A model generated the notes under the pieces. It was given only the letters and a program-made list of their open reading frames with translations. It ran no database searches and was not told the DNA's origin. Below, piece after piece: positions 7,353 through 63,778 of a stretch of 64,000 nt of DNA (position 1 is the stretch's first letter; the number at the start of each line of letters is the position of its first letter). The DNA comes from a phage, in sequence record PZ445534.1; one strand, given 5' to 3'. The position numbers and the translations under genes are program-made.

Positions 7353-7886
7353 TCAACTTAGTTTTGCAAACTCTCCGTGGAGTTTAATAGCAGCTTCACA
7401 GTAAGCTTTATGGGCTTCTTCAGGTGTGTCATGGTGACCTAAAAACATCTTCTTACCTTTATAACTTATCTGTGCGACCCACTTACCAGACTTCTTCTTA
7501 AGACTTACACCCTTGTACCCAGATTTATTGGTGACCGGTTTACCTTTATTCCAAGCACTTTGAAAATCATCTGCTTCCCTTAAGTTTACAATCCTGTTGT
7601 CAAGTGAGTCTCCGTTGATATGGTCAATGATACCTTTTGGCATCTTGCCATACACGTAAAGCCATGCGAGTCTGTGTGCTTTATGTGCTTTCTTGTCAAA
7701 ATAGATACTAACCTGTTTATGACCACTTGAATCAGTCTGGATATTACCTGCCACCTTTCCTGCATAATTACTGTTAAAAACACTAACAGCTCTTGATTTA
7801 CCTTCTCTACGAAGCCAAGTAAAGACCCCTGTTTCGGGGTCATAGTGCAGCAGCTCCTTTAAACGTTTTTGTAAAATTAAATCCAT
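7353..7886 (-). CDS. HNH homing endonuclease with AP2-like DNA-binding domain
   Basis: HNH_3-like core DHINGDSLDNRIVNLR and AP2-like SGYKGVS...GKWVAQI...EEAHKAY; N-terminus LHYDPETGVFTW shared with ORF 17725-18240. Confidence 0.7.
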   Translation of the reverse strand: MDLILQKRLKELLHYDPETGVFTWLRREGKSRAVSVFNSNYAGKVAGNIQTDSSGHKQVSIYFDKKAHKAHRLAWLYVYGKMPKGIIDHINGDSLDNRIVNLREADDFQSAWNKGKPVTNKSGYKGVSLKKKSGKWVAQISYKGKKMFLGHHDTPEEAHKAYCEAAIKLHGEFAKLS

Positions 7887-7889
7887 TAA

Positions 7890-8444
7890 TCAATGTACCT
7901 CATACCAGCTCTTACCAACCTTTGCTGTACCAGTTACAAGTGTTTCTTTCCTCAAACCTAAGTTTTTTGAAGCTTGTCCATACATCCAGTCAGCAATTGC
8001 TTTCATATCATGTGTCATACCCTCTGGACATTCCCAACTATTTTCATCGTGATATGCCAGAAGTAACCTTGCTCCGATAGCTGGTTTTCGAGCATTCAGT
8101 TTTGTCAGGCCATCTTCACAGGCTTTTCTTGCTGCTAGGTTGATGGCCTCATTCTGAATCTGTGCTTCCGAACTCATCAGGAGGTAGTTCAGTAGTTTAT
8201 GTGGAGATTTGCACCATATCCATGCTCCAGCGACCCTGATATAACCACCTTTAGCAATTGAAGAATTCTTCCCAAAAACCTCTTCCAGAGCCTTTTTAGA
8301 CGCCTTAAAATCGGCTTCTAAGCTATCAAGTAACTTCTTAATCTTTGGCAGACGCATATAGTAAGTTTGTTTAGTCAATGCACCTTCTTCCGTAGATGAT
8401 GCCTTGATAGTTTTTGCAAACTTCTCGTCTCCAGCCCCGAACAA
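7890..8444 (-). CDS. DNA polymerase (family A), downstream exon/fragment (motif B second half to motif C)
   Basis: FGAGDEK, KSPHKLLNYLL and AYHDENSWEC align with T7 gp5 YGAGDEK, RSPHAALNTLL, AWVHDEIQVGC; ORF track start is a TTG preceded by stop, no good RBS. Confidence 0.75.
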   Translation of the reverse strand: MFGAGDEKFAKTIKASSTEEGALTKQTYYMRLPKIKKLLDSLEADFKASKKALEEVFGKNSSIAKGGYIRVAGAWIWCKSPHKLLNYLLMSSEAQIQNEAINLAARKACEDGLTKLNARKPAIGARLLLAYHDENSWECPEGMTHDMKAIADWMYGQASKNLGLRKETLVTGTAKVGKSWYEVH

Positions 8445-8705
8445 TACATCTGGTCAATACACTCGCAAGGTGTACCAGTTCTCTTATGAACTTCTCCGCA
8501 TTTCTACGGAGTGTCGGACTATATCACGTAGCAGTGGTGCTACCGTTGCACTTGGGATGGTCATTAGCTTACCACCCTACTCTACTCAGTTCATACGTTA
8601 AGTATGCTTTTCGATAGTCTCTGAACGTTCCTCTTAAGAGGCTTCGCTGCTGATTACCATATCTTTACAGACTTAGGCTTCCAGCAATTCACAACGTTTT
8701 ACATG
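8445..8705 (-). ncRNA. putative ORF-less group I intron interrupting DNA polymerase motif B
   Basis: Intervening sequence with stop codons; coding strand has R-like GTTCAGAGACTA and S-like GATATAGTCC elements, ends in G; exact splice sites not resolved. Confidence 0.6.
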
Positions 8706-10886
8706 CGCCACTGACGCATAAATGCCATTTTTGGCTTTCTTACGACCTTTTGTAATCTCGTGGAGAAGTTCCTCATCCTGTGTCTCCCTACAACGAACAA
8801 TGTCTTCTTCCTTGTTCAGACCAAAGTAAATACTATTCAGTGTATGTGCATCAGTACCTGTGTAGACTTCATAGAGGTCATTCTCAGCATCATAACGCAG
8901 ATACTTGTCAGTTTCTGGGTTAAGATACTTGTCAAGATGCTTGCAGTAGTATCTACCATCATCTTGCTTAGTGAACTCAACTGACTCTTTACCCTCAGTT
9001 ACCGCTTTAGTGAAGTCTTCATCACCCATAAAGTTACAAAGAAGAACTAGCTGGGCTGAGTTTTGGTCTACAGAGACAACGTTAGTACCTTCTTCACAAA
9101 TCCACACCTCCCTCATAGGTGCTCCATAGACAGCAGCACCAGACGGTACGTTTACAATACCATATTGTGTCATACGTCCAGTTGAAGTACCAAACACCAT
9201 TGCACCAGCACTAAGGCGACCATCAGGACGAATCTGGTTCAACCAACCTTTTTCATCATCTTTTGAGTTCTCAATAGTTCTACGTCGGTGCATCAAAGTA
9301 TAGTACTTAGCAATCTTCTGTCCAAGCTCACCTTCAATCGTATCATAAGATGATTCAGTAAGTTTTGGTGAAGTACGGATTAAGCAAGGCTCAAGCAAAT
9401 CTGTGTATTTCTTCACAGACCAGTTATGCTCAATGTACTGGACACCTTCATGCTCAACATAGCTCAAACCACACCGCTCAACCATTTCCTGCCACTTAGG
9501 ATGCTTTGTAATCATCTTTTTATTGTCTTTGAAACGACAAACTTTGATAGGGCGACCATCTGAGTCTTTCTTGTAATTCCAGTCATCTGGAATCCAACCA
9601 ACTGATTTCAAGTAGTCTTTAACAACTGCTACCTGAGTCATACGAGAAACTTCAAACTCAATTGGTGTATATGGTGCATCAATCAAACCTGTGTAGCGAC
9701 TTGACTCAAGTTCAAAGTGGTTAACAACGTGGCTGTTATAGTACTTCACAGTTTTGACTGTTTTTACTGGCTTCCAGTCTTTGCATTTCTTACCAATCTT
9801 TGCGTTCAACTCATTGCAAATTGCACGAGCATCCTTCATTGCTACAAAACCTTCCTTGTACTCTTCACCAGTTACAGAGTTGGTTGGTGTATAGCAATTC
9901 CTTTTTTCAATGTTAAAAATCTTTGTAGTTGGCTTACCAAATGGTTTGATTTCGTATGTCTGCATCTCACCATTACGTACCTGCTGACGATACTTTGTCT
10001 TAGGGTACTTGGTAATTCTTTTCAGTCCATCTGCATGACCAAATGTTTCAACATACTCATTCCAAGCTTTTGCAAACTCTTCTCCAGTGACTTTACCTTT
10101 GGTCTTAATAGTTGGAGGAAGATGTGGTTCAACCTCTGAAGCAAGCTCATTAGTCAACTTGTCAAGTTCCTTTACATGGAACTCCATAAGCTCTTTATCA
10201 GCTTTCCAACCATTAATAGCTTGTTGACTCATCCAGAAAGATGTTTCTTTAGCTCGCATGTAGGTTTCATAAGTGTCTATGCCACACTTCTTAAGCTTGA
10301 GATACTCATTATCAAGTGCCCGTTTAGTTTTGGCGTTAATACGGATATCTTCTACAACACGAGTGAAGATTTCTGCATTCCACACACCCCAATGTTCAAT
10401 CTCTGGTTTACGAACACCAACACGAGCACCCCATGCAGCCAAGCCATGAGCACCTTTATAACCCTTTGGAGTTGGTCTATCCATCCACTGAACACGAGAC
10501 TGGATAAGAGAATCCTGAAAGAAATTACTCCACGGCTTACACTTTGGATTATCAAAGTTCCATAAATCCGGTGCAATGTGATTGAAAACCCACCAGTCAT
10601 AACCTAGACCATTATGAATGCAAAGACGTTTTGCCTTTAACGCAAACTCAACACCTTCACGTAAGCCACCCTTAATGTACTTGGTATACTTGTGACCGAG
10701 GATAGGCTCATCTGTAAAGACCCATACAGGCGGCTCTTTATCGTCAGATTTATAGTCTGCGAAAGCCATTACGTGCACTTTAGTGAACTCAAGGAGTAAA
10801 CCATCAGTTTCTGTATCACCAACTAAATGTAAGTTTTTAAAATCTACGTTTTCCATTTTTACTCCCTCTAAAATCATTAACCTCAT
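8673..10886 (-). CDS. DNA polymerase (family A, T7 gp5-like) upstream exon/fragment with 3'-5' exonuclease domain
   Basis: Exo motif VGDTETDG near N-terminus; ORF ends inside motif B (RKKAKNGIY...) shortly before an in-frame stop. Confidence 0.85.
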   Translation of the reverse strand: MRLMILEGVKMENVDFKNLHLVGDTETDGLLLEFTKVHVMAFADYKSDDKEPPVWVFTDEPILGHKYTKYIKGGLREGVEFALKAKRLCIHNGLGYDWWVFNHIAPDLWNFDNPKCKPWSNFFQDSLIQSRVQWMDRPTPKGYKGAHGLAAWGARVGVRKPEIEHWGVWNAEIFTRVVEDIRINAKTKRALDNEYLKLKKCGIDTYETYMRAKETSFWMSQQAINGWKADKELMEFHVKELDKLTNELASEVEPHLPPTIKTKGKVTGEEFAKAWNEYVETFGHADGLKRITKYPKTKYRQQVRNGEMQTYEIKPFGKPTTKIFNIEKRNCYTPTNSVTGEEYKEGFVAMKDARAICNELNAKIGKKCKDWKPVKTVKTVKYYNSHVVNHFELESSRYTGLIDAPYTPIEFEVSRMTQVAVVKDYLKSVGWIPDDWNYKKDSDGRPIKVCRFKDNKKMITKHPKWQEMVERCGLSYVEHEGVQYIEHNWSVKKYTDLLEPCLIRTSPKLTESSYDTIEGELGQKIAKYYTLMHRRRTIENSKDDEKGWLNQIRPDGRLSAGAMVFGTSTGRMTQYGIVNVPSGAAVYGAPMREVWICEEGTNVVSVDQNSAQLVLLCNFMGDEDFTKAVTEGKESVEFTKQDDGRYYCKHLDKYLNPETDKYLRYDAENDLYEVYTGTDAHTLNSIYFGLNKEEDIVRCRETQDEELLHEITKGRKKAKNGIYASVAHVKRCELLEA

Positions 10887-24522: not shown

Positions 24523-25722
24523 ATGAACAAAGTACAGATTATTAAAAAGAATGGCTCACTTGAAGAACCTGATATCAAAAAAGTTTTAGCAGCAGTCACA
24601 AAGTCAGCTAACAGAGTTGGTTATAAAGAGCTTCCACCAGATGTTACTCAAGCTCTTGAGTCAGCATTTATGAGGATTCTGGTAAAGTCCACTAAGCAGA
24701 ATAATTTGCTAATTTCGGTAAATGATATTCACAGTATTGTTGAGGGTGCTTTGGCAGAAGTCAATCACGAGATTTATGAGTCTTACTCAACATATAGAAA
24801 TTACCGTAAAGAGGTTGCTCAAAATTGGGATGAACTCTACCAGAAGACCAAAGATACACTCTTCTTAGGCGACCGAGAAAACGCTAATTTTGACAGCAGT
24901 TTAATTTCTACAAAAGGCTCAATTATTCGTGGTTACCTGACTAAAGAAATCTTTAAACAGTACCATTTAACACCAGAGGAACTTGAAGCCATTGAAAAAG
25001 GATTTATCTATATCCATGATTTAAGAGACCTAATTTTTGGTGGTATCAACTGTTGCCTGTTTGACATTGGTAAAGTCCTGAAAGGTGGCTTTGAAATGTC
25101 TGGCATTGAATATTGTGAACCGAAGTCTGTGCTGTCAGCCTTACAGGTTATTGGTGATGTAGTTCTTTCAGCAACTGCACAGCAATTTGGTGGCTTTACT
25201 TTAGCAGAGATTGATAAGGTACTTGTACCGTATGCTAAGAAGTCTCTACGTTACCATGCTGAAAAAGCAACAGCTTATGGTATTCCTAAAGAACATTACC
25301 ACAACTATGTCATGGAGCAGCTACAGATTGAATTAACTCAAGGTTTTCAGTCTCTTGAAATGAAGCTCAATACTGTGCCTTGTAGCCGTGGTGATTTTGC
25401 ATTCACAACTTTGACATTCGGGTTACTTGACTCAGATATGTCTAATGAAGATAACCGACTGCAATACATGATTGCGAGCACTCTCCTAGATGTTCGTATG
25501 AATGGACAAGGTAAGAGCAAGAAACCTGTTGTATTCCCTAAACTGGTTTATATTTATGACCAGAAGAGACACAATGAGAATATCTGTCAAGGCCACCTGT
25601 ACAGTAAAGCTATTGAGTGTTGCTCTAAAGCTATGTATCCAGATTTCTTAAGTGTATCTGGACATGGTGCTGTAGCAGAGGCTTTTGAGCGTTCTGGCAA
25701 GGTAATTTCCCCGATGGGTTAA
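24523..25722 (+). CDS. nrdD: anaerobic ribonucleoside-triphosphate reductase, exon 1
   Basis: ATP-cone-like N-terminus; ORF ends at TAA 25720-25722 which lies at start of intron-like sequence. Confidence 0.75.
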   Translation: MNKVQIIKKNGSLEEPDIKKVLAAVTKSANRVGYKELPPDVTQALESAFMRILVKSTKQNNLLISVNDIHSIVEGALAEVNHEIYESYSTYRNYRKEVAQNWDELYQKTKDTLFLGDRENANFDSSLISTKGSIIRGYLTKEIFKQYHLTPEELEAIEKGFIYIHDLRDLIFGGINCCLFDIGKVLKGGFEMSGIEYCEPKSVLSALQVIGDVVLSATAQQFGGFTLAEIDKVLVPYAKKSLRYHAEKATAYGIPKEHYHNYVMEQLQIELTQGFQSLEMKLNTVPCSRGDFAFTTLTFGLLDSDMSNEDNRLQYMIASTLLDVRMNGQGKSKKPVVFPKLVYIYDQKRHNENICQGHLYSKAIECCSKAMYPDFLSVSGHGAVAEAFERSGKVISPMG

Positions 25723-26023
25723 CAAGCTCTATAGCTCATCTAAAACGTGCCTAAACAGGGAAACTCTACAGATGTAGACAATCCTGTGCTAAATGATGTA
25801 CGATGTAAGAAACTATACAACATAGGAGTCTTACATGCCAAATAACTTCGAATATGAGTTTGAATACATCTAAATGCCGAACGACTAACCGTGATGAATG
25901 TAGCGGTGTAGGGTCAAGCGACTCGAAATGGTACGCTACTTAGAAATAAGTAGAAGATATAGTCTGGACTTACTGGCGACAGTAAGCAGCTTGAATAAAG
26001 CGGGGTAAGCTTAGCGAACTTAC
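25720..26023 (+). ncRNA. putative ORF-less group I intron in nrdD
   Basis: AAACAGGGAAACTCTACAGATGTAGACAATCCTGTGCTAAAT closely resembles the T4 td intron core as recalled; S-like AAGATATAGTC element present; 3' boundary uncertain (26014-26038). Confidence 0.7.
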
Positions 26024-26983
26024 TTGAACAACAAGTGTAGAGCATTTTTATCACCATACCATAACGAACATGGTGAAGAGTTTTATGTAGGTCGTGCTAA
26101 CATTGGTGCTGTATCTTTGAACTTACCAATGATTTATCAGTACACCAAAGAGAATGGCTTAGATTTCTGGAAAGAGCTTGATAAGTACCTAGAAATGATT
26201 CGCAGCTTCCACAAGAAACGTTACGAAATGATTGCTAATATGCCAGCAAGTTCTAACCCTCTTGCATTCACACAGGGTGGTCTGTACAAAGGGAATAAGA
26301 AACCTACTGACAAGGTTGGCTGGGATATCGTGAAGTCCTTCACAGCTTCTTTTGGGGTTACTGCGCTTGATGAGCTATCTGTTCTTGCTGAAGGTAAACG
26401 ACTCCATGAAGTTGGAAGCTGTAGTTTTGCATATGATGTTCTGGCATACATTAACATGAAAACTGAAGAGTTTAAGAACGAAGATGGCTTCTTGTATGCG
26501 GTATATGGCACTCCAGCAGAATCACTTTGTGGAACTCAGTTAAAACAGTTCAGAGATATGTTTGGCGTTATTAAAGGTGTCTCTGACAAGGAATACTTTA
26601 CAAACAGTTTCCATATGAATGTTGCAGCAGACATCTCACCATTTGAGAAGCAGGACTTAGAAGAGCCATTCTTCCATATCTGTAGAGGTGGTAGAATCCA
26701 GTATGTAAGGGTAGCTAACCCAGAAAACTTAACAGCACTTAAAAGTTGTATTACAAGAGGGATGTTGAAAGGTTTCTATCAGGGGCTTAACTTTGACTTA
26801 GCAATCTGTGAACATTGTGGTAACAGACCAAAGGCTGATGTTGAAGAATGTGAGGTTTGCCATTCACATGATATCTCTGTGATTAACAGGGTGTGCGGGT
26901 ACTTGTCATTCACAAAAATTAAAGGTCAGTCTCGAATGAATGACGCTAAGATGGCAGAAATTAAGGATAGGGTTTCTATGTAA
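26024..26983 (+). CDS. nrdD: anaerobic ribonucleoside-triphosphate reductase, exon 2
   Basis: C-terminal CEHCGN...CEVCH zinc site and glycyl-radical motif RVCGYL; true exon start probably slightly upstream of ORF-track start. Confidence 0.75.
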   Translation: MNNKCRAFLSPYHNEHGEEFYVGRANIGAVSLNLPMIYQYTKENGLDFWKELDKYLEMIRSFHKKRYEMIANMPASSNPLAFTQGGLYKGNKKPTDKVGWDIVKSFTASFGVTALDELSVLAEGKRLHEVGSCSFAYDVLAYINMKTEEFKNEDGFLYAVYGTPAESLCGTQLKQFRDMFGVIKGVSDKEYFTNSFHMNVAADISPFEKQDLEEPFFHICRGGRIQYVRVANPENLTALKSCITRGMLKGFYQGLNFDLAICEHCGNRPKADVEECEVCHSHDISVINRVCGYLSFTKIKGQSRMNDAKMAEIKDRVSM

Positions 26984-58575: not shown

Positions 58576-58605
58576 TTGACAATCACTAAAAAATAATGTT
58601 AAAGT
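58576..58605 (+). promoter_or_regulatory. sigma70-like promoter upstream of tRNA array (TTGACA-18-TAAAGT)
   Basis: -35 58576-58581, -10 58600-58605. Confidence 0.45.
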
Positions 58606-58622
58606 GGTTACATAGAGTTTGA

Positions 58623-58699
58623 AAAGTTTATCTCTGTTTAGCTCAGCTTGGTAGAGCGTTCCGTTTGGGGCGGTAAGGCCGGAGGTTCAAGTCCTCCAA
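58623..58699 (+). tRNA. tRNA-Pro (anticodon TGG)
   Basis: Acceptor CTCTGTT/AACAGAG, D-arm AGCTCAGCTTGGTAGAGC, T-arm GGAGGTTCAAGTCCTCC, encoded CCA; one anticodon-stem mismatch. Confidence 0.7.
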
Positions 58700-58706
58700 C
58701 AGAGAC

Positions 58707-58784
58707 CAAATTAATGTTCCAGTAGACAAAATGGTATAGTCACCACTCTTTCAAAGTGGATATCTGAGGGTTCAAATCCCTTCT
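58707..58784 (+). tRNA. tRNA-Glu (anticodon TTC)
   Basis: Acceptor GTTCCAG/CTGGAAC, anticodon arm CCACT-CTTTCAA-AGTGG, T-loop TTCAAAT, CCA. Confidence 0.7.
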
Positions 58785-58786
58785 GG

Positions 58787-58866
58787 AACGCCAGTTTTGA
58801 CAGAAGACCAATTACAGCAAACTTAATCTACTCATCTGAAAGTTAATCGGACAAAGAAGATATTTG
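58787..58866 (+). repeat. inter-tRNA repeat element copy 1 (ACAGAAGACC-N4-TACAGCAA ... GGTCTGG)
   Basis: Conserved 5' and 3' motifs shared with copies at 58953, 59347, 59437. Confidence 0.6.
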
Positions 58867-58875
58867 GTCTGGTCA

Positions 58876-58951
58876 TTAAGAATTGCGGGTATAGAGAAAG
58901 GGCGTCTCACATGTCTCATTAGCATGGTATCGGCAGGTTCGACTCCTGCAC
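58876..58951 (+). tRNA. tRNA with CAT anticodon (Met/fMet/Ile2), irregular acceptor pairing
   Basis: D-arm GAGA-AAGGGCG-TCTC, anticodon arm CATGT-CTCATTA-GCATG, T-arm GCAGGTTCGACTCCTGC; acceptor 6 of 7 pairs. Confidence 0.5.
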
Positions 58952-58952
58952 C

Positions 58953-59025
58953 CGCCTCCAAATTTACAGAAGACCGTTTACAGCAATATTTATTAAATTT
59001 TTAGCGGAAAAATTGAAAGATACGG
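58953..59025 (+). repeat. inter-tRNA repeat element copy 2
   Basis: ACAGAAGACCGTTTACAGCAA ... ACGGTCTGGT. Confidence 0.6.
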
Positions 59026-59034
59026 TCTGGTAAT

Positions 59035-59108
59035 ACTAAATATGGTTAGGAAGCACATAAGGTATGTGCGGTCGCCTGTTAAGCGAATGGCACAGGGTTC
59101 GAATCCCT
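59035..59108 (+). tRNA. tRNA-Asn (anticodon GTT)
   Basis: Acceptor GGTTAGG/ACTAACC, D-arm GCAC-ATAAGGTAT-GTGC, anticodon loop CTGTTAA, T-arm CAGGGTTCGAATCCCTG; no encoded CCA. Confidence 0.6.
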
Positions 59109-59119
59109 GACTAACCGCA

Positions 59120-59207
59120 AAATTAAATGTGTCGTTATCCCGTAGATGGTAGCGGTGGGGACTGTAAATCCCTTGTCATTGAGACTCGGTAGGTTCGACT
59201 CCTACAC
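59120..59207 (+). tRNA. tRNA-Tyr (anticodon GTA), long variable arm
   Basis: Acceptor GTGTCGT/ACGGCAC, anticodon arm GGGGA-CTGTAAA-TCCCT, T-arm GTAGGTTCGACTCCTAC, CCA. Confidence 0.65.
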
Positions 59208-59212
59208 GGCAC

Positions 59213-59289
59213 ACCAATAAAGGCTATGTAGTTTAACTGGAGAAAATACTCCCCTGTCACGGGAGATGATGTGAGTTCAAGTCTCATCG
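59213..59289 (+). tRNA. tRNA-Asp (anticodon GTC)
   Basis: Acceptor GGCTATG/CGTAGCC, anticodon arm CTCCC-CTGTCAC-GGGAG, T-loop TTCAAGT, CCA. Confidence 0.7.
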
Positions 59290-59346
59290 TAGCCGCCAAT
59301 TTTGAGAGGGCTATTTAGCCCCTCCCTTAAAGAGTTCTTACGAGTA

Positions 59347-59428
59347 TTCTTTAAAGGAGCAGAAGACCAAATACAGCAAGAATGTATGATATTTTCAAGC
59401 CAATTCAATTTTGAAAAATTTAAAACTT
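59347..59428 (+). repeat. inter-tRNA repeat element copy 3
   Basis: CAGAAGACCAAATACAGCAA ... CTTGGTCTGGC. Confidence 0.55.
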
Positions 59429-59436
59429 GGTCTGGC

Positions 59437-59572
59437 TCAACAAATTTACAGAAGACCGTTTACAGCAAAACTTAAACAATCTATTTCTCGGTAAAGAAAA
59501 GGCGAAGGTTCGATTCCTTCACTCGGCAGAGGTCGAGTTGGTGTAATGGTAGCACTTAAGATGATAAACAAC
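59437..59572 (+). repeat. inter-tRNA repeat element copy 4 enclosing tRNA halves in permuted order
   Basis: ACAGAAGACCGTTTACAGCAA ... [anticodon-arm-like + T-arm GAAGGTTCGATTCCTTC + 3' acceptor ACTCGGC] GAG [5' acceptor GTCGAGT + D-arm GTGTAATGGTAGCAC] ... ACGGTCTGGT. Confidence 0.5.
59474..59547 (+). other. tRNA-like segments in 3'-half then 5'-half order (permuted tRNA or recombinant tRNA fragments)
   Basis: 3' acceptor ACTCGGC (59512-59518) is complementary, with one G.U, to GTCGAGT (59523-59529) located 4 nt downstream. Confidence 0.4.
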
Positions 59573-59721
59573 GGTCTGGTAATTATCTTTGCAGTAGCTT
59601 ATGTGGCTAATTATGTCGTCCCATGAGTGCCGATGAATTTCCTTAGCATGATTCTAGATTAGCTTAATAGGAAATGACTCTACAGACCCTTTAGCAAGGT
59701 CTGCGTAGGTTACTGCAAAGA

Positions 59722-59797
59722 TGATTTAATGGAAGTGTAGCAGAATGGTGATGCGGCAGACTTTTAATCTGACAGGCGATGGGTTCGAATCCCTCCA
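59722..59797 (+). tRNA. tRNA-Lys (anticodon TTT)
   Basis: Acceptor GGAAGTG/CACTTCT, anticodon loop CTTTTAA, T-loop TTCGAAT with weak T-stem, CCA; homologous to tRNA at 60957. Confidence 0.55.
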
Positions 59798-59802
59798 CTT
59801 CT

Positions 59803-59879
59803 ACCAAAAATGGTTCAGTCGCAGATAAGGTAATGCAAGGGTTTCATAAGCCCTATGAATGTGGGTTCGATTCCCATCT
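59803..59879 (+). tRNA. tRNA with CAT anticodon (Met/fMet/Ile2)
   Basis: Acceptor GGTTCAG/CTGAACC, anticodon arm AGGGT-TTCATAA-GCCCT, T-loop TTCGATT, CCA. Confidence 0.65.
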
Positions 59880-59881
59880 GA

Positions 59882-59957
59882 ACCTCCAATGCTGTGAAAG
59901 CACATATGGATGTGCATTCGGCTGATAACCGAAAGGCAGAAGGTTCGAATCCTTCTC
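59882..59957 (+). tRNA. tRNA-Ile (anticodon GAT)
   Basis: Acceptor GCTGTGA/TCACAGT, D-arm GCAC-ATATGGAT-GTGC, anticodon arm TTCGG-CTGATAA-CCGAA, T-arm GAAGGTTCGAATCCTTC, CCA. Confidence 0.7.
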
Positions 59958-59972
59958 ACAGTACCAATTTCA

Positions 59973-60001
59973 ATAAAGTTGTTGACATTAAGATGTGACT
60001 A
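59973..60001 (+). promoter_or_regulatory. sigma70-like promoter inside tRNA array (TTGACA-17-TATAGT)
   Basis: -35 59973-59978, -10 59996-60001. Confidence 0.55.
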
Positions 60002-60205
60002 CTTTATAGTAACCTTAGTTTTCGTTGCGTAGCGTCTATTTTGCAAATTTAAAATAAATGCAAACGACAATGTTTTTCTGGCAGTAGCTTGATAGGCTAA
60101 ACACCAGTGAGGTCTTCCAATCCCTCATCAAAGAATTTGGCGTACTCGCCCACGGTATGATTAATAAGGTGGGCATCTTTAAGGGCTTTCTAATAGAGTC
60201 TTTAA

Positions 60206-60287
60206 AGATAATTACGGGGCGTATCTCAGCGGTCTTCTAAACCGCCGTTAACCGAGTAAGTGGAGTATGCGGGTTCGAGTCCTGCCG
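60206..60287 (+). tRNA. atypical tRNA-like gene, possible anticodon TCT (Arg)
   Basis: Acceptor CGGGGCG/CGCCTCG, T-arm GCGGGTTCGAGTCCTGC, CCA; hairpin GCGGT-CTTCTAA-ACCGC; D-arm region not canonical. Confidence 0.4.
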
Positions 60288-60430
60288 CCTCGACCAATTT
60301 AGTTAGCAGATTACTTAGACGACCTAAGCGGGTCTTCCTGTAGGGAGGTGGTCTGTATCTCATGTTTTCCAGAACATGTAAATAATCTGAGAAGGGGCTT
60401 TACAGTGTTGAGATAATACGGTAAGCTTCG

Positions 60431-60513
60431 AATTATAGTATGGGACGATGTTAAGACTCTAAGGCATGAGCAACGGCCTCCAAAACCGTTTCAAAGGGGT
60501 TCAACTCCTCCGT
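60431..60513 (+). tRNA. atypical tRNA-like gene, possible anticodon CCA (Trp)
   Basis: Perfect acceptor ATGGGAC/GTCCCAT, T-loop TTCAACT, CCA; enlarged D region. Confidence 0.4.
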
Positions 60514-60526
60514 CCCATGCCAAAGT

Positions 60527-60614
60527 CTTATTAGGGGTAGGTAGCGGCTAATGGCAGCCAAACAGTCTTGAAAACTGTTGCCACTGTAGAGATACGGTGA
60601 GGGTTCGACTCCTT
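60527..60614 (+). tRNA. tRNA-Ser (anticodon TGA), long variable arm
   Basis: Acceptor GGTAGGT/ACTTACC, anticodon arm ACAGT-CTTGAAA-ACTGT, 20-nt variable arm, T-loop TTCGACT. Confidence 0.6.
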
Positions 60615-60770
60615 TACTTACCGCCTAATAAGATTTTAAAGCCAAGCTTCATTCGGATGTCGCTTTGGTATCCCTCGTGTATTGTCGTACACACTGATAA
60701 AACACCTAGTAGGTGTCACGGAGAAGAGATAATATCAAGCTCTCCAAAGGTTCTAGTCACCGGATTAAAC

Positions 60771-60797
60771 AAGACTATGCAAAGACCTTTTTAGGTC
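60771..60797 (+). terminator. rho-independent terminator inside tRNA array
   Basis: AGACC-TTTTT-AGGTCT plus TTTTT. Confidence 0.5.
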
Positions 60798-60872
60798 TTT
60801 TTAGAGGGCTTCTAAGGTTATTACAGCTTGTTGTGGAACCTTGTTGCTTAGGTTCTTAGAAGTTCTCTAAAA

Positions 60873-60949
60873 AGATTTAATGCACCTATAGCCCAACTGG
60901 TAGAGGCAGCAGACTTAGAATCTGCTCAGTGTGAGTTCGAATCTCTCTA
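60873..60949 (+). tRNA. tRNA with anticodon TAG (Leu by anticodon) but short variable arm
   Basis: Acceptor GCACCTA/TAGGTGT, anticodon arm GCAGA-CTTAGAA-TCTGC, T-loop TTCGAAT, CCA. Confidence 0.55.
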
Positions 60950-60956
60950 GGTGTAC

Positions 60957-61032
60957 CAAATTAATGCAGGTGTAGCAAAATGGTTATGCGGCTGACCCTT
61001 AATCAGTAAGACGATGGGTTCAATTCCCTCCA
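60957..61032 (+). tRNA. tRNA-Lys (anticodon CTT)
   Basis: Acceptor GCAGGTG/CACCTGT, anticodon arm GCTGA-CCCTTAA-TCAGT, T-loop TTCAATT, CCA. Confidence 0.55.
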
Positions 61033-61038
61033 CCTGTA

Positions 61039-61114
61039 CCAAACAATGGGGTCATAGTTTATATGGTTAAAATTCGAGTTTTGCAAACTTGGGAACTGAG
61101 TTCAATTCTCAGTG
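61039..61114 (+). tRNA. tRNA-Ala (anticodon TGC)
   Basis: Acceptor GGGGTCA/TGACTCC, anticodon arm CGAGT-TTTGCAA-ACTTG, T-arm CTGAGTTCAATTCTCAG, CCA. Confidence 0.7.
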
Positions 61115-61120
61115 ACTCCA

Positions 61121-61195
61121 CCAATTAGTGCATCCATAGTTTAAACGGGAAAATTACAGTCTTCCAAACTGAGGTTGAGGGTTCGATTCCCTCTG
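61121..61195 (+). tRNA. tRNA-Gly (anticodon TCC)
   Basis: Acceptor GCATCCA/TGGATGC, anticodon loop CTTCCAA, T-arm GAGGGTTCGATTCCCTC, CCA. Confidence 0.7.
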
Positions 61196-61202
61196 GATGC
61201 TC

Positions 61203-61278
61203 CAAATTAATGCTCCTATCGTATAATTGGTTATTACGGTTGCCTTGTAAGCAACTTATCAGGGTTCGAGTCCTTGTG
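61203..61278 (+). tRNA. tRNA-Thr (anticodon TGT)
   Basis: Acceptor GCTCCTA/TGGGAGC, anticodon arm GTTGC-CTTGTAA-GCAAC, T-loop TTCGAGT, CCA. Confidence 0.7.
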
Positions 61279-61384
61279 GGAGCACCAATTCAGAGGTCAA
61301 GTGAAAGACCGCTTTGAGTCAACTGAAGACCGTAACAAATTCCACGAAGTTGAGTTAGCGGCACAACTTCAGACCTCTTTCATA

Positions 61385-61459
61385 CTCGCTTAGTTTATAT
61401 GGTAAAACATCACCCTTACAAGATGAAGAAAAAGGTTCAAGTCCTTTAGTGAGTACCAT
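61385..61459 (+). tRNA. tRNA-Val (anticodon TAC)
   Basis: Acceptor ACTCGCT/AGTGAGT, anticodon loop CTTACAA, T-arm AAAGGTTCAAGTCCTTT, CCA. Confidence 0.6.
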
Positions 61460-61460
61460 G

Positions 61461-61538
61461 TTCCAGTATCCCAATTGGCAGAGGATGCAAGCTCAAACCT
61501 TGTATTAGTGACGGTTCGAATCCGTCTTGGAACACCAA
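61461..61538 (+). tRNA. tRNA with anticodon CAA (Leu by anticodon) but short variable arm
   Basis: Acceptor GTTCCAG/TTGGAAC, anticodon arm GCAAG-CTCAAAC-CTTGT, T-arm GACGGTTCGAATCCGTC, CCA. Confidence 0.55.
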
Positions 61539-61543
61539 TTTTG

Positions 61544-61619
61544 CAGGATTAGTTCAAATGGATAGAGCAACAGTCTACGAAGCTGCTAATAGGGGTTCGA
61601 ATCCCTTATCCTGCGCCAA
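61544..61619 (+). tRNA. tRNA-Arg (anticodon ACG)
   Basis: Acceptor GCAGGAT/ATCCTGC, D-arm GTTC-AAATGGATA-GAGC, anticodon loop CTACGAA, T-loop TTCGAAT, CCA. Confidence 0.6.
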
Positions 61620-61637
61620 TTTAAAGAGGCTATTTAG

Positions 61638-62195
61638 ATGAGATATTTGAAGTATGCTTCATGGATTTTCTTAGCTTTGTTAGAGCCATTTGCAGCAATC
61701 TTAGCAGTTATCTTAGCACCTTTTGTAGTTCCATTCTACAGTGAGAAGAAAGGGCACTTACCTTTCGGGTTCAGATGGATGGAGACATATGACAACCCAA
61801 TTGATGGTGATGAAGGTCACGTTAAAAGATGGGCTAATATTAGATGGATTGGTAAACTAGGTGTCTACATGCAAAGAGTCGGATGGCTCTGGAGAAACAA
61901 AGCTTATAACTTCTCTTACCATGTATTAGGAAGAGATGTAAGAGATGTTACTAAGTGGAAAGGTAATATCAACGTAAGTTCTGACCCCGAAGATAATCAG
62001 ACAGGTTATCTCCTAATGTGGAACAGTAATGCTTGGGGATTATTCGCTTTTATCCCATCAATTAAAATCTTTGGTAAACAATTTTACTGGAGAATTTATA
62101 TTGGATGGAAACTAAAAAGTGTTGTCCCAGAAGAAAGAGCATTCTCAAGGGAAAGAGTTATGTTGGCATTCTTTATTCATCCACTGAGAAAGTAA
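61638..62195 (+). CDS. hypothetical membrane-anchored protein encoded within tRNA array
   Basis: 185-aa ORF with N-terminal hydrophobic segment WIFLALLEPFAAILAVILAPFVV. Confidence 0.45.
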   Translation: MRYLKYASWIFLALLEPFAAILAVILAPFVVPFYSEKKGHLPFGFRWMETYDNPIDGDEGHVKRWANIRWIGKLGVYMQRVGWLWRNKAYNFSYHVLGRDVRDVTKWKGNINVSSDPEDNQTGYLLMWNSNAWGLFAFIPSIKIFGKQFYWRIYIGWKLKSVVPEERAFSRERVMLAFFIHPLRK

Positions 62196-62203
62196 AGATT
62201 TAA

Positions 62204-62279
62204 AGGGGATTAGTTTACAAGGTTAAAACCTCGGTCTTTGAAATCGAAGAAGTTGGTTCAATTCCAACATCCCCCGCCA
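62204..62279 (+). tRNA. tRNA-Gln (anticodon TTG)
   Basis: Acceptor AGGGGAT/ATCCCCC (1-72 mismatch), D-arm GTTT...AAAC, anticodon arm TCGGT-CTTTGAA-ATCGA, T-arm GTTGGTTCAATTCCAAC, CCA. Confidence 0.6.
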
Positions 62280-62281
62280 AT

Positions 62282-62360
62282 GCTCCATTACTCCAATTGG
62301 CAGAGAGGCCAGACTTAAAATCTGTGTTATGTATCGGTTCGAATCCGATATGGAGTACCA
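62282..62360 (+). tRNA. tRNA with anticodon TAA (Leu by anticodon), 7-nt variable loop
   Basis: Acceptor GCTCCAT/ATGGAGT, anticodon loop CTTAAAA, T-arm ATCGGTTCGAATCCGAT, CCA. Confidence 0.5.
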
Positions 62361-62365
62361 AATTT

Positions 62366-62441
62366 AGCGGTATAGCATAACTGGCAATGCAGCAGCCTCT
62401 GAAGCTGTCCTATTAAGGTTCAAATCCTTATGCCGCTGCCA
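62366..62441 (+). tRNA. tRNA-Gln (anticodon CTG)
   Basis: Acceptor AGCGGTA/TGCCGCT, D-arm GCAT-AACTGGCA-ATGC, anticodon arm GCAGC-CTCTGAA-GCTGT, T-arm TAAGGTTCAAATCCTTA, CCA. Confidence 0.7.
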
Positions 62442-62472
62442 CTTCTAAGGATTCTTGCGAGAGTCCTTAAAT

Positions 62473-62548
62473 GTGGCCTTATCATAAACGGTAATGACCC
62501 ATGCTGTGAACATGGTCTATACGGGTTCAAATCCCGTAGGTCACCCCA
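62473..62548 (+). tRNA. tRNA-His (anticodon GTG)
   Basis: Acceptor GTGGCCT/AGGTCAC, anticodon arm CCATG-CTGTGAA-CATGG, T-arm ACGGGTTCAAATCCCGT, CCA. Confidence 0.7.
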
Positions 62549-62554
62549 ATTTAT

Positions 62555-62630
62555 AGTCCAAGTAGCTTATATGGTTAAAGCGCGTGTCTGAAAAACATGA
62601 GAAGAGAGTTCAAATCCCACTGGACTACCA
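62555..62630 (+). tRNA. tRNA-Phe (anticodon GAA), boundaries approximate
   Basis: Anticodon arm CGTGT-CTGAAAA-ACATG, D-arm GCTT...AAGC, T-loop TTCAAAT; acceptor pairing ambiguous between two registers. Confidence 0.5.
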
Positions 62631-62646
62631 ATTTCAAAGGTGCTTA

Positions 62647-63381
62647 ATGAAAGAGATGACAGAACAAGGTAAGGAGATTTTTAATCTCTTAAAAACTGGT
62701 AAAGGGTTCTCTAACCCGCTTATTACTGGTGCAGCAGTTCTCGGTGGAACCGTAGCTGCCTCTACATCACTTGTAAGCTCTATTAGTTCTGTAACAGACC
62801 CTACAATGAAGGAGAAGCTTGTTGCTGCTGGACTTACAACAGTCCTTCTAAACAGCTTTACAACAAGCCTGACAAGCACTACAGCAACCACTAAGACCCT
62901 AACAGACTATGGTCAAAAGTCTATTGATGAGTTTTCATCACGTATGCAGGTAGCAAAGGGATACTCCAATGTTATGGGTGCAGCAGGAGAACAAGTTGGT
63001 TGTACACCATTCAGTGGTATTATGGGTGTTGCTACAGAATATGGTCAAAAAGCTATTGATACGATTAACAGTACACTAGAGAGTGTTAATGGTGTGTTAA
63101 GTGACTTACAAGATGCTATTGATAAGGGTCTTGATACTGTTTCTGATTTAGCTAATCAGGCTGTTAGTAAGATTAATGAAGGTATTTCAAAGATTACAGC
63201 TTATGCAGATGAAGTTGTGCAGATGATTGAAGAAGAAGCTGCCCTTATTGCAGAGTACCTTAAAACGAATATCAATGGGTTCTTAGCAGGTATCTTACCA
63301 GACTGGTTTGATGATGCTTGTAAAACTGGTGTAATCGACACTATTGCAACACCAGAAATGAAGAACGCATTGCAGAAATAA
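62647..63381 (+). CDS. hypothetical Ser/Thr-rich protein
   Basis: ATG at 62647 with AAGGTG RBS (ORF track start 62584 would overlap tRNA-Phe). Confidence 0.45.
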   Translation: MKEMTEQGKEIFNLLKTGKGFSNPLITGAAVLGGTVAASTSLVSSISSVTDPTMKEKLVAAGLTTVLLNSFTTSLTSTTATTKTLTDYGQKSIDEFSSRMQVAKGYSNVMGAAGEQVGCTPFSGIMGVATEYGQKAIDTINSTLESVNGVLSDLQDAIDKGLDTVSDLANQAVSKINEGISKITAYADEVVQMIEEEAALIAEYLKTNINGFLAGILPDWFDDACKTGVIDTIATPEMKNALQK

Positions 63382-63382
63382 T

Positions 63383-63475
63383 GGAAGATTAACCCTAAAA
63401 GGTAAGGGAGCAGTTTGCTAAACTGCCAGTAGCTGAGAAATCGGTGTACCAGTTCAAGTCTGGTATCTTCCTCCA
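63383..63475 (+). tRNA. tRNA-Ser (anticodon GCT), long variable arm
   Basis: Acceptor GGAAGAT/ATCTTCC, anticodon arm GCAGT-TTGCTAA-ACTGC, T-arm ACCAGTTCAAGTCTGGT, CCA. Confidence 0.6.
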
Positions 63476-63480
63476 ATTTT

Positions 63481-63555
63481 GAATCCGTGACAGAAATGGA
63501 TATGTGCCTGTCTGCAAAACAGGTTTATAAGGGTTCAAGTCCCTTCGGATTCTCC
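63481..63555 (+). tRNA. tRNA-Cys (anticodon GCA)
   Basis: Acceptor GAATCCG/CGGATTC, anticodon arm CCTGT-CTGCAAA-ACAGG, T-arm AAGGGTTCAAGTCCCTT, CCA. Confidence 0.65.
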
Positions 63556-63778
63556 AAGTTATTTTACTCTCTCTCAATTAAAATAATAATAATGCCCTGC
63601 TATAAGTATTCTTCCTTTCGCTACCGAAGAGTATTTTTAGACAGGGCTTTTTTACAGAGTTATACTTTATAAGAAGGCTTATACAGTATGTCTCTGACGT
63701 ACATTGTGGTTTCTCCTTGACGGTCTCTGTGCCGTCTTTTTTAAGGAGAAACATGGTTAATTATTTGGAGAAAACATA

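What the first reader, a model, noticed from the sequence alone, without database searches (positions are those of the whole stretch)
25720..26023. nrdD interrupted by a putative td-like group I intron
The anaerobic RNR gene is split into an N-terminal ORF (24523-25722) and a C-terminal ORF carrying the glycyl-radical motif RVCGYL (26024-26983). The roughly 300-nt gap contains AAACAGGGAAACTCTACAGATGTAGACAATCCTGTGCTAAAT, nearly identical to the T4 td intron core as I recall it, plus an S-like AAGATATAGTC element. The exon 1 stop codon TAA lies right after a ...GGGT 5' junction, as in T4 introns. No ORF is present in the intron.
Basis: partly seen in the sequence, partly recalled or inferred. 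Interest (0 to 1): 0.8.

Follow-up and report, generated by a model that had tools for sequence, protein, structure and literature searches.

The report
Group I intron splitting phage nrdD
A 316-base self-splicing-type (group I, T4 td-like) intron sits exactly in front of the catalytic cysteine codon of the anaerobic ribonucleotide reductase gene of a Felix O1-like phage; it is a textbook kind of element that has lost its homing-endonuclease gene, and public genome records annotate it only as a "split gene".

Summary
The window is a Felixounavirus (Felix O1-like myovirus).

- **RNA family.** Rfam RF00028 scores 54.6 bits, above the gathering threshold of 50.
- **Splice sites.** An internal guide sequence pairs 7 bp with each exon (P1 and P10). 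Phage Felix O1 itself carries an intron-less nrdD that is contiguous exactly across the predicted junction (GGT|TGY, Gly399|Cys400).
- **Product.** The spliced ORF is a 714-aa NrdD that aligns without a break to solved NrdD structures. Cys400 matches the catalytic Cys290 of T4 NrdD.
- **Structure.** Helices P1-P9.2, including the subgroup IA P7.1/P7.2, are supported by covariation with seven related phage introns.
- **Homing endonuclease.** The intron is not simply ORF-less. It keeps a 12-codon remnant of a 154-aa I-HmuI-like HNH gene that is intact in about 60 sister phages, lost here by an exact 426-nt in-frame deletion.
- **Distribution.** Homologous introns with homologous HNH genes occupy the same codon boundary in rV5-like, Justusliebigvirus and Vibrio phages. 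The T4 nrdD intron sits about 110 codons upstream.

Verdict: an ordinary, unannotated new member of a known kind. Splicing itself is inferred, not shown.

The parts
24523..25719 (+). nrdD exon 1 (codons 1-399, ends ...Ser-Pro-Met-Gly)
   Evidence: ORF list. Contiguous with exon 2 in the intron-less Felix O1 and wV8 genes. NrdD homology to PDB 9d3x and 1h78.
25713..25719 (+). 5' exon strand of P1 (GAUGGGU); U25719 is the splice-site U of the U.G wobble
   Evidence: Pairs 7/7 with 25734-25740. The centroid of an unconstrained RNAfold recovers P1. The helix covaries in relatives (helix 1).
25720..26035 (+). Group I (subgroup IA2, td/sunY-like) intron, 316 nt
   Evidence: Rfam RF00028, 54.6 bits. 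Exact absence in intron-less alleles. Covariation.
25720..25722 (+). In-frame UAA stop as the first three intron bases
   Evidence: Sequence. Same arrangement in the T4-type td intron, GGGT|TAATTG. That it keeps ribosomes out of the ribozyme is inferred.
25727..25740 (+). Internal guide sequence: CUCUAUA (P10 strand, 25727-25733) followed by GCUCAUC (P1 strand, 25734-25740)
   Evidence: Base complementarity to both exons read from the sequence.
25746..25751 (+). P3 5' strand (pairs with 25930-25935)
   Evidence: 100% of cells paired, 4 of 6 pairs with compensatory changes (helix 3). Recovered by RNAfold.
25755..25787 (+). P4 (25755-25760 / 25782-25787) enclosing P5 (25765-25769 / 25774-25778)
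Evidence: Helices 4 and 5; RNAfold.
25788..25877 (+). P6 (25788-25789 / 25876-25877) and P6a (25795-25800 / 25865-25870), enclosing the loop that holds the endonuclease gene in relatives
   Evidence: P6a: 5 of 6 pairs compensatory (helix 7). RNAfold.
25803..25836 (+). Hairpin 'P6b' (AUGUAAGA / UCUUACAU) whose 3' arm covers the spacer and the first two bases (AU) of the AUG of the endonuclease remnant; the Shine-Dalgarno GGAG lies in its loop
   Evidence: RNAfold -9.8 kcal/mol, z = -4.0. The translational-control role is inferred by analogy with the T4 introns.
25835..25873 (+). 12-codon remnant (MPNNFEYEFEYI*) of a 154-aa I-HmuI-like HNH homing-endonuclease gene; deletion joint at about 25840-25843
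   Evidence: Alignment with the 742-nt intron of phage pSJ21: an exact 426-nt (142-codon) in-frame gap with 2-nt microhomology. Pfam HNH_3 on the intact ORF.
25883..25887 (+). P7 5' strand GACUA (old 'R' element); pairs with 25960-25964 UAGUC (old 'S' element). Guanosine-binding helix, pseudoknotted with P3
   Evidence: Invariant in all 8 aligned introns (helix 8), so there is no covariation. Rfam consensus match.
25888..25924 (+). P7.1 (25888-25891 / 25904-25907) and P7.2 (25911-25915 / 25920-25924), the subgroup IA extension
   Evidence: Helices 9-11 (compensatory changes in SD2 and AerTerL). RNAfold.
25936..25953 (+). P8 hairpin (CUACUUA GAAA UAAGUAG)
   Evidence: 6 of 7 pairs compensatory (helix 12).
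25969..26024 (+). P9 (25969-25975 / 25980-25986, GNRA loop GCGA), P9.1 (25989-25992 / 25998-26001), P9.2 (26004-26009 / 26019-26024)
   Evidence: Helices 13-15. Within Felixounavirus copies the P9 loop changes GCGA to GUGA (still GNRA), and P9.2 changes G.U to G-C.
26035..26035 (+). Terminal guanosine (omega-G), last intron base
   Evidence: Position fixed by the intron-less alleles and by P10.
26036..26983 (+). nrdD exon 2 (codons 400-714 plus stop). Includes the P10 strand UGUAGAG at 26036-26042, the Cys400 codon at 26036-26038, and the glycyl-radical motif RVCGYL at 26888-26905
   Evidence: Translation. Cys400 aligns with the MGC cysteine that is residue 290 of T4-type NrdD. Continuous alignment to 9d3x.

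Best explanation
Window bases 25720-26035 are a group I intron of subgroup IA2 inside the anaerobic ribonucleotide reductase gene nrdD of a Felix O1-like phage. It lies in phase 0 between the codons for Gly399 and the catalytic Cys400.

Proposed mechanism:

1. nrdD is transcribed as a precursor. Ribosomes reading exon 1 stop at the UAA that forms the first three intron bases.
2. The RNA folds. The guide sequence GCUCAUC pairs with the last seven exon-1 bases (P1, with a U.G wobble at the cleavage site). The P3-P9.2 core forms, including the P3/P7 pseudoknot.
3. A free guanosine bound in P7 attacks after U25719.
4. The adjacent guide bases CUCUAUA hold the first seven exon-2 bases (P10). The terminal G26035 enters the G site and the exons are ligated to ...AUGGGU|UGUAGA....
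5. The resulting mRNA encodes a 714-aa NrdD.

What is shown and what is inferred:

- **Shown here:** the sequence and structure features, the exact junction, and the comparative support.
- **Inferred from the family:** the chemistry and in vivo splicing.

The element is a decayed mobile intron. Sister phages carry the same intron with a 154-aa I-HmuI-like HNH nicking-type homing endonuclease in the P6 loop. This copy lost 142 codons of that gene in one in-frame deletion, so it can no longer home on its own. It could still spread by recombination, or in trans during co-infection.
For: - **RNA family.** Rfam RF00028 scores 54.6 bits against a gathering score of 50, E = 4e-11.
- **Guide sequence.** P1 and P10 are each 7 bp and lie next to each other in one guide sequence.
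- **Intron-less alleles.** Felix O1, wV8, CL1, BPS15Q2 and the Mooglevirus HP1 have ...ATGGGT|TGC... with nothing in between.
- **Product.** The spliced protein aligns across the junction to PDB 9d3x (E = 4.5e-76) and to T4 NrdD 1h78. Cys400 corresponds to T4 Cys290.
- **Covariation.** On 8 introns, 91.7% of cells are paired against 33-41% when partners are slid. 39 of 77 pairs carry compensatory changes, and 0 of 500 shuffles reach the observed values.
- **Thermodynamic folding.** Unconstrained folding recovers P3, P4, P5, P6, P6a, P7.1, P7.2, P8, P9 and P9.1, plus P1 in the centroid structure, at z = -3.15.
- **Selection on helices.** Among 9 Felixounavirus copies, only 4 of 23 variable sites fall in the 142 paired positions (Fisher p = 0.008). 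Every change in a core helix keeps the pair.
- **Homology.** The 3' half is 70.7% identical to T4-type td. The 5' part is 87.5% identical to a T4-type nrdD intron.
- **Endonuclease remnant.** It is defined by alignment to pSJ21. The intact ORF is HNH_3 and 49-50% identical to the ORFs of same-site introns in other phage groups.
- **Homing footprint.** 11-13 substitutions in the first ~55 nt of exon 2 separate intron-plus from intron-less alleles, against 0-1 in the last 100 nt of exon 1.
Against: - No RNA data. Splicing has not been observed for this intron or, in the literature I could search, for any Felixounavirus nrdD intron.
- P7 is invariant, so covariation does not support it.
- P10 pairs in only 60% of cells across the distant relatives, partly because of alignment register.
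- The structure was derived from the window sequence, which inflates the 'cells paired' measure relative to the slid controls.
- The high intron identity among Felixounaviruses (95.6-99.7%) could reflect recent spread rather than selection.
- Whichard et al. 2010 (PMC3185647) reported no introns in Felix O1. That is consistent, because Felix O1 carries the intron-less allele.
Confidence: 0.93

Rival explanations
1. Genes in pieces. The insert does not splice, and NrdD is made as two polypeptides that assemble, as with Aeromonas phage Aeh1 NrdA split by mobE.
For: GenBank records annotate two separate CDSs. A precedent exists for a phage ribonucleotide reductase (Friedrich et al. 2007, cited in PMC3653736 and PMC7344957).
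Against: - The catalytic Cys400 is the very first codon of exon 2.
- The only in-frame start upstream of it is a TTG at 26024. It has no Shine-Dalgarno sequence and lies buried in the P9.2 stem.
- The ATG-initiated CDSs annotated in GenBank (855-867 nt) lack the cysteine.
- A complete ribozyme core supported by covariation, with guide-sequence pairing to both exons, would be unexplained.
Confidence: 0.03
2. Dead intron. The ribozyme has decayed along with its endonuclease gene, so nrdD is a pseudogene in this phage.
For: The endonuclease gene is clearly degenerate. Anaerobic RNR may be dispensable in laboratory culture. One relative, ST11, carries an imprecise deletion that removes the intron and the Cys codon.
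Against: - Both exons keep intact reading frames.
- All core helices are intact.
- Substitutions among 9 copies avoid paired positions or keep the pairs (p = 0.008).
- The deletion is confined to the P6 loop, where an ORF can be present or absent without touching the core.
Confidence: 0.04
3. Chance resemblance: an ordinary intergenic spacer between two nrdD-like genes.
For: None beyond the two-CDS annotation in public records.
Against: Rfam E = 4e-11. Precise absence in intron-less alleles. Covariation. Homology to experimentally characterised T4 introns.
Confidence: 0.005

Closest known systems
Phage T4 td (thymidylate synthase) group IA2 intron carrying I-TevI
   Same: - Subgroup IA2 architecture with P7.1/P7.2, P9.1 and P9.2.
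- ORF position in the P6 loop, with the ORF's 3' end running into the P6/P7 core.
- UAA stop immediately after a ...GGGU 5' splice site.
- 70.7% identity over the 3' 160 nt, and 35/42 over the P4-P6 block.
   Different: - Host gene is nrdD, not td.
- No P2 helix.
- The endonuclease in relatives is an I-HmuI-like HNH, not the GIY-YIG I-TevI, and here it is deleted.
- P3, P6a, P8 and P9.2 differ by compensatory changes.
Phage T4 nrdD (sunY) group IA2 intron carrying I-TevII
   Same: - Same host gene.
- No P2.
- Near-identical guide sequence (GCUCAUG against GCUCAUC) and 5' domain.
- An identical P7-P7.1 block, CGACTAACCGTGATGAATGTAGCGGTGTAG.
- 87.5% identity over 111 aligned bases in the T4-like phage JK45.
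   Different: - Different insertion site: after ...AYE, about 110 codons upstream of the catalytic Cys.
- The ORF lies 3' of the core, not in P6.
- The ORF is GIY-YIG.
HNH (I-HmuI-type) endonuclease introns of Bacillus phages SPO1/SP82, and I-BasI and I-TwoI
   Same: - Relatives of this intron encode HNH_3 plus an I-HmuI NUMOD-like domain.
- Intron-plus and intron-less alleles differ in a cluster just downstream of the insertion site. From my own knowledge of the literature, not checked here, this is reported for those nicking enzymes.
   Different: - Different genes (DNA polymerase, nrdE) and different hosts.
- No cleavage data for the Felixounavirus enzyme.
- The window copy lacks the enzyme.
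Same-site nrdD introns in Vequintavirus (HMD-6, navn, A13b), Justusliebigvirus SD2 and Vibrio phage F95
   Same: - Identical insertion point (MG|CR).
- Homologous ribozyme.
- Homologous HNH ORF (49-50% aa identity) in the same P6 loop.
   Different: - 762-819 nt with an intact ORF.
- About 71-75% nucleotide identity over the parts of the ribozyme that align.
- The guide sequence is adapted to each host's exon (G-C changed to C-G at position -7).

Membership tests
Group I intron (Rfam RF00028) | Covariance-model score at or above the curated gathering threshold | tested here: met
   54.6 bits against 50, E = 4e-11 for the window.
Group I intron (Rfam RF00028) | P1 helix between the 5' exon and an internal guide sequence, with a U.G wobble at the 5' splice site | tested here: met
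   GAUGGGU (25713-25719) pairs with GCUCAUC (25734-25740), and U25719 pairs with G25734. The helix covaries with exon changes in relatives.
Group I intron (Rfam RF00028) | Terminal guanosine at the 3' splice site, and a P10 pairing with the 3' exon | tested here: met
   G26035. CUCUAUA (25727-25733) pairs with UGUAGAG (26036-26042), 7/7.
Group I intron (Rfam RF00028) | Conserved core P3-P4-P5-P6-P7-P8 with the P3/P7 pseudoknot | tested here: met
   All helices are present. P3, P4, P5, P6a and P8 are supported by compensatory changes. P7 is invariant.
Group I intron (Rfam RF00028) | Removal restores an uninterrupted host gene | tested here: met
   714-aa NrdD. Continuous alignment to PDB 9d3x. 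Intron-less alleles have the same junction.
Group I intron (Rfam RF00028) | Guanosine-dependent self-splicing of the RNA | not testable with these tools
   Needs in vitro transcription with GTP labelling, or RT-PCR.
Subgroup IA2 (T4 td / nrdB / sunY type) | Extra helices P7.1 and P7.2 between P7 and the 3' strand of P3 | tested here: met
   25888-25907 and 25911-25924. Both covary (helices 9-11) and both are recovered by RNAfold.
Subgroup IA2 (T4 td / nrdB / sunY type) | Detectable sequence homology to the T4 introns | tested here: met
   70.7% to td over 160 nt (E = 2e-10). 87.5% to a T4-type nrdD intron over 111 nt.
Orthologue of the T4 nrdD (sunY) intron | Same insertion site in nrdD | tested here: not met
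   The T4-type site lies after ...AFQAYE, about 110 codons upstream of the MGC cysteine. Here the site is immediately before that cysteine.
Autonomously mobile intron (intron plus homing endonuclease) | Intact intron-encoded homing-endonuclease gene | tested here: not met
   Only 12 of 154 codons remain in the window. The gene is intact in at least 61 related records.
Autonomously mobile intron (intron plus homing endonuclease) | Patchy presence among close relatives, with exon changes flanking the insertion site | tested here: met
   Roughly 130 intron-less, ~33 ORF-less and ~61 ORF-containing Felixounavirus records (estimated). There is an exon-2 substitution cluster.

The most novel reading that the evidence does not exclude
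One intron-plus-HNH-endonuclease lineage has been passed between at least four unrelated phage groups: Ounavirinae, Vequintavirinae, Stephanstirmvirinae and a 138-kb Vibrio phage. In each it lands on the same Gly|Cys codon boundary of the NrdD catalytic loop. That part is shown here.

The lineage also shares its guide sequence (GCUCAUG/C) and 5' domain with the T4 sunY intron, which sits about 110 codons upstream at a look-alike 5'-exon sequence (AUGAGU against AUGGGU). This would fit an ancestral jump between two sites of the same gene by reverse splicing into a site that matches the guide sequence, rather than by endonuclease homing. That part is speculative.
Probability: 0.15. Interest if true: 0.55.

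Novelty: new member of a known kind. Interest (0 to 1): 0.33.

Why it matters
- **Annotation.** About 90 public Felixounavirus genomes, plus rV5-like, Justusliebigvirus and Vibrio phage genomes, list nrdD as two genes, a misc_feature or 'split by a homing endonuclease'. It is one gene with a group I intron, and the CDS should be written as a join that restores the catalytic cysteine.
- **Intron biology.** The Felixounavirus set holds all three stages of the homing cycle side by side in near-identical genomes: the empty site, the intron with its endonuclease, and the intron with a decayed endonuclease. It also shows an asymmetric exon-2 footprint. That makes it a convenient natural system for studying HNH-driven intron spread.
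- **Mechanism.** Nothing here changes what is known about how group I introns work.

Tried and rejected
- **Rfam 5' boundary rejected.** The Rfam alignment placed P1/P2 inside exon 1 (25605-25743). I rejected this because P1 and P10 found by hand fit the junction defined by intron-less alleles.
- **Global MAFFT of the window against intron-less Felix O1 and ST11.** It smeared exon 2 across the intron, so I read the junction directly from the sequences.
- **Rfam at gathering threshold on ten related loci.** It found only the two ORF-less introns (Aeromonas terminase, phiKZ-like RNA polymerase). Endonuclease-containing introns are missed because of the 500-740-nt insert, so I fixed their boundaries by exon homology instead.
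- **The other candidate 3' splice sites (26014, 26026, 26038).** Only 26035 restores ...MG|CR..., gives the P10 pairing and matches the intron-less alleles.
- **Same intron as T4 nrdD.** Rejected on insertion site.
- **Literature.** I found no description of this intron.
  - Whichard 2010 states that Felix O1 has no introns.
  - Bardina 2016 calls nrdD 'split by a homing endonuclease'.
  - The 2023 SPJ41 paper lists 'two introns' among ncRNAs without detail.
- **Allele counts.** An exact census of the three allele states was not possible. The numbers given are estimates from BLAST summaries.
Full report
**1. What the window is**

The 2.7 kb around the finding is 94-97% identical to more than 200 Felix O1-like myoviruses (Felixounavirus) of Salmonella and E. 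coli. The gene order nrdB, glutaredoxin, small membrane protein, nrdD is the same as in those phages.

**2. Checking the observation**

The sequence is as described.
- An ORF at 24523-25722 ends ...SPMG followed by TAA.
- A mechanical ORF at 26024-26983, starting at a TTG, carries the glycyl-radical motif RVCGYL.
- Between them lie the quoted P4-P6-like 42-mer (from 25753) and AAGATATAGTC (from 25954).
- Rfam's group I model (RF00028) matches 25605-25986 on the plus strand at 54.6 bits. The gathering score is 50, and E = 4e-11 for the whole window.
- The 3' two-thirds of that Rfam alignment (P3 to P9) is convincing. The 5' third is forced into exon 1 and is wrong.

**3. Splice sites**

NrdD proteins carry a conserved ...PMGCR(S/A)FL... 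motif. Exon 1 ends ...CCG ATG GGT, and TGT AGA GCA TTT TTA begins at 26036.
- Joining U25719 to U26036 gives one 714-aa ORF.
- The ORF aligns to solved NrdD structures without a break at the junction: 'gkvispmgcrafls' against 'GSFKAPMGCRSFLQ' in 9d3x, E = 4.5e-76. It also aligns to T4 NrdD 1h78, E = 1.2e-74.
- A 400-nt synthetic spliced junction matched, in one uninterrupted piece, the nrdD of Felix O1, wV8, KhF2 and more than 100 other Felixounaviruses.
- Those genes read ...CCCGATGGGT|TGCAGAGCT..., with nothing between Gly and Cys.
- The intron is therefore 25720-26035 (316 nt), phase 0, between Gly399 and Cys400.
- In a T4-type NrdD the same MGC cysteine is residue 290. From established knowledge of class III reductases, not tested here, that is the catalytic thiyl-radical cysteine.
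26035 was one of its four candidates.

**4. Guide sequence**

- Intron bases 25734-25740 (GCUCAUC) pair 7/7 with the last seven exon-1 bases (GAUGGGU). The splice-site U25719 sits in a U.G wobble.
- The seven bases just upstream (25727-25733, CUCUAUA) pair 7/7 with the first seven exon-2 bases (UGUAGAG). This is the P10 helix.
- This is the textbook arrangement that aligns both exons on a single guide.
- The TGC-to-TGT difference at the Cys codon between intron-less and intron-containing alleles turns a C x A mismatch in P10 into a U-A pair.
- The first three intron bases are an in-frame UAA, as in the T4-type td intron (GGGT|TAATTG).

**5. Secondary structure and covariation**

I aligned the window intron, with endonuclease ORF interiors removed, to seven relatives:
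- Felixounavirus JH2
- rV5-like HMD-6
- Justusliebigvirus SD2
- Vibrio phage F95
- the T4-type td intron (RB6)
- an Aeromonas phage terminase intron
- a phiKZ-like RNA-polymerase intron

I wrote the structure P1, P3, P4, P5, P6, P6a, P7, P7.1, P7.2, P8, P9, P9.1, P9.2 and P10 on the window row. Counting gave:
- 91.7% of cells paired, against 33-41% when the 3' partners are slid by 1-3 columns.
- 39 of 77 pairs with changes on both sides, against 7-18 when slid.
- No shuffle out of 500 reached the observed values.
- P3 (4/6), P6a (5/6), P8 (6/7), P9.2 (4/6) and P9.1 (3/4) are rich in compensatory pairs.
- P7 is invariant, so it is uninformative.
- P10 holds poorly in the distant introns (60%).

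The structure was derived from the window sequence, which favours it in the 'cells paired' measure. The compensatory-pair counts are less affected by this.

Two further checks support the fold:
- An unconstrained thermodynamic fold of 25713-26042 recovers P3, P4, P5, P6, P6a, P7.1, P7.2, P8, P9 and P9.1, plus P1 in the centroid structure, at z = -3.15.
- Across nine Felixounavirus copies there are 23 variable sites. Only 4 fall in the 142 paired positions (Fisher p = 0.008). The three in core helices keep their pairs, and the P9 tetraloop changes GCGA to GUGA, which is still GNRA.

P7.1/P7.2 place the intron in subgroup IA2, with the three T4 introns.

**6. Relationship to the T4 introns**

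- The 3' half (from P7.2 to the last few bases of the intron) is 70.7% identical to td introns of T4-like phages.
It is similar, not 'nearly identical'.
- The 5' part resembles the T4-type nrdD (sunY) intron of phage JK45, at 87.5% over 111 bases. The shared features are the absence of P2, the guide sequence, and the block CGACTAACCGTGATGAATGTAGCGGTGTAG.
- That intron is at a different place, about 110 codons upstream. Its GIY-YIG ORF (I-TevII) lies 3' of the core.
- So this is not the T4 nrdD intron transplanted.

**7. The 'missing' ORF**

About 61 related records hold a 742-nt version of the same intron with a 154-aa ORF in the P6 loop.
- The window differs from it by one exact 426-nt (142-codon) in-frame deletion with 2-nt microhomology.
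- What remains is a Shine-Dalgarno sequence, ATG and 12 codons (MPNNFEYEFEYI*, 25835-25873).
- The intact protein is Pfam HNH_3. Its homologues in other phages also match the I-HmuI NUMOD-like domain.
- At least 27 records listed carry exactly this deletion, and three checked base by base are also 316 nt. This points to a single event that has since spread.
- The remnant's spacer and the first two bases (AU) of its AUG lie in the 3' arm of an 8-bp hairpin (25803-25836; -9.8 kcal/mol, z = -4.0). The Shine-Dalgarno GGAG sits in its loop.
- That hairpin recalls the translational sequestration known for the T4 intron ORFs. This is an inference.

**8. Population picture and homing footprint**

From the BLAST summaries, Felixounavirus records divide roughly as follows:
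- about 130 intron-less
- about 33 with the ORF-less intron
- about 61 with the full intron

Comparing the window with Felix O1:
- The last 100 nt of exon 1 has 1 mismatch.
- The first 50 nt of exon 2 has 11 mismatches.
- Further out the rate falls to 1-6 per 50 nt on both sides.

The same exon-2 substitutions separate all four intron-containing alleles from the four intron-less Felixounavirus alleles examined; the more distant intron-less Mooglevirus HP1 shares most of them. This is what co-conversion during homing would leave. It is also what selection for endonuclease-resistant target sequence just downstream of the insertion site would leave. The pattern is shown here; the cause is inferred.

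**9. Same site in other phages**

Homologous introns interrupt nrdD at the identical MG|CR boundary in three other phage groups:
- rV5-like phages (HMD-6, navn, A13b)
- Justusliebigvirus SD2
- Vibrio phage F95

They carry homologous HNH ORFs (49-50% amino-acid identity). Their guide sequences track their own exons: exon CAUGGGU with guide GCUCAUG, against GAUGGGU with GCUCAUC here.

**10. Literature**

- Whichard et al. 2010 (PMC3185647) found no introns in Felix O1. That is correct for that strain.
- Bardina et al. 2016 (PMC4837284) describe nrdD of UAB_Phi87, JH2 and HB-2014 as split by a homing endonuclease.
- A 2023 paper on SPJ41 (PMC9951933) lists 'two introns' among ncRNAs without comment.
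- Dwivedi et al. 2013 (PMC3653736) survey split phage RNR genes; in the passages I read (a term search, 12 of 16 shown) no Felix O1-like phage appears.
- None of the GenBank features under the matches is an intron.
- I did not find a description of this intron, its splice sites or its site-sharing relatives.

**11. Verdict**

It is a new, unannotated member of a very well-known kind. It has a degenerate homing-endonuclease gene and sits at a biologically pointed site, the catalytic cysteine codon. Splicing is inferred from sequence, structure and comparative evidence, not demonstrated. Interest is modest.

Noticed in passing
window 8494-8776 (minus strand); flanking ORFs 8673-10886 (-), 7890-8444 (-) and 7353-7886 (-): A second group I intron (RF00028, 61.7 bits) splits the family-A DNA polymerase gene. 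Exon 1 ends ...RKKAKNGIYA and exon 2 contains ...FGAGDEKFAKT. Directly downstream of exon 2 is a free-standing 177-aa HNH_3 + AP2 protein, probably a homing endonuclease. Its splice sites were not determined.
   Followed up: partly
locus L004 (Salmonella phage ST11, MF370225.1 about 75220-75240): ST11 reads ...ATGGGT TA|ATTTTTATC.... The intron is gone except for its first two bases, and the first 8 nt of exon 2, including the catalytic Cys codon, are gone too. This is either an imprecise intron deletion that inactivates nrdD or an assembly artefact.
   Followed up: partly
loci L005 (JK45) 2488-2735 versus L009, L011, L006 and window 25720-25745: The T4-type nrdD (sunY) intron and the MG|CR-site introns share the guide sequence GCUCAUG/C and the following ...UAAAA... 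linker. Yet they sit at different nrdD sites whose 5' exons look alike (AUGAGU against AUGGGU). This could hint at an old site switch guided by the intron RNA. It is speculative.
   Followed up: no
locus L006 (Vibrio phage F95) 1-3700: The nrdD of this 138-kb Vibrio phage is broken at least twice, with a 309-aa and a 168-aa HNH endonuclease ORF between fragments. Only the second interruption, at the MG|CR site, was analysed.
   Followed up: partly
window 58600-63600 (+): A dense array of 24 tRNA genes by Rfam, typical of Felix O1-like phages (22 were reported for Felix O1 in PMC3185647).
   Followed up: no
records MG065664, MG065668 and MG065677 ('Campylobacter phage' A132, A126, A13b): Records labelled UNVERIFIED Campylobacter phages carry Felixounavirus- or Vequintavirus-type nrdD introns at 98% identity to coliphage sequences. 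They look mislabelled or contaminated.
   Followed up: no
loci L012 (Aeromonas phage 4L372XY, terminase) and L013 (Pseudomonas phage HUST_1, RNA polymerase beta): Related ORF-less IA2 introns (RF00028, 85.3 and 83.7 bits) split a large-terminase gene and a phiKZ-type virion RNA polymerase subunit gene. Neither is annotated as an intron.
   Followed up: partly
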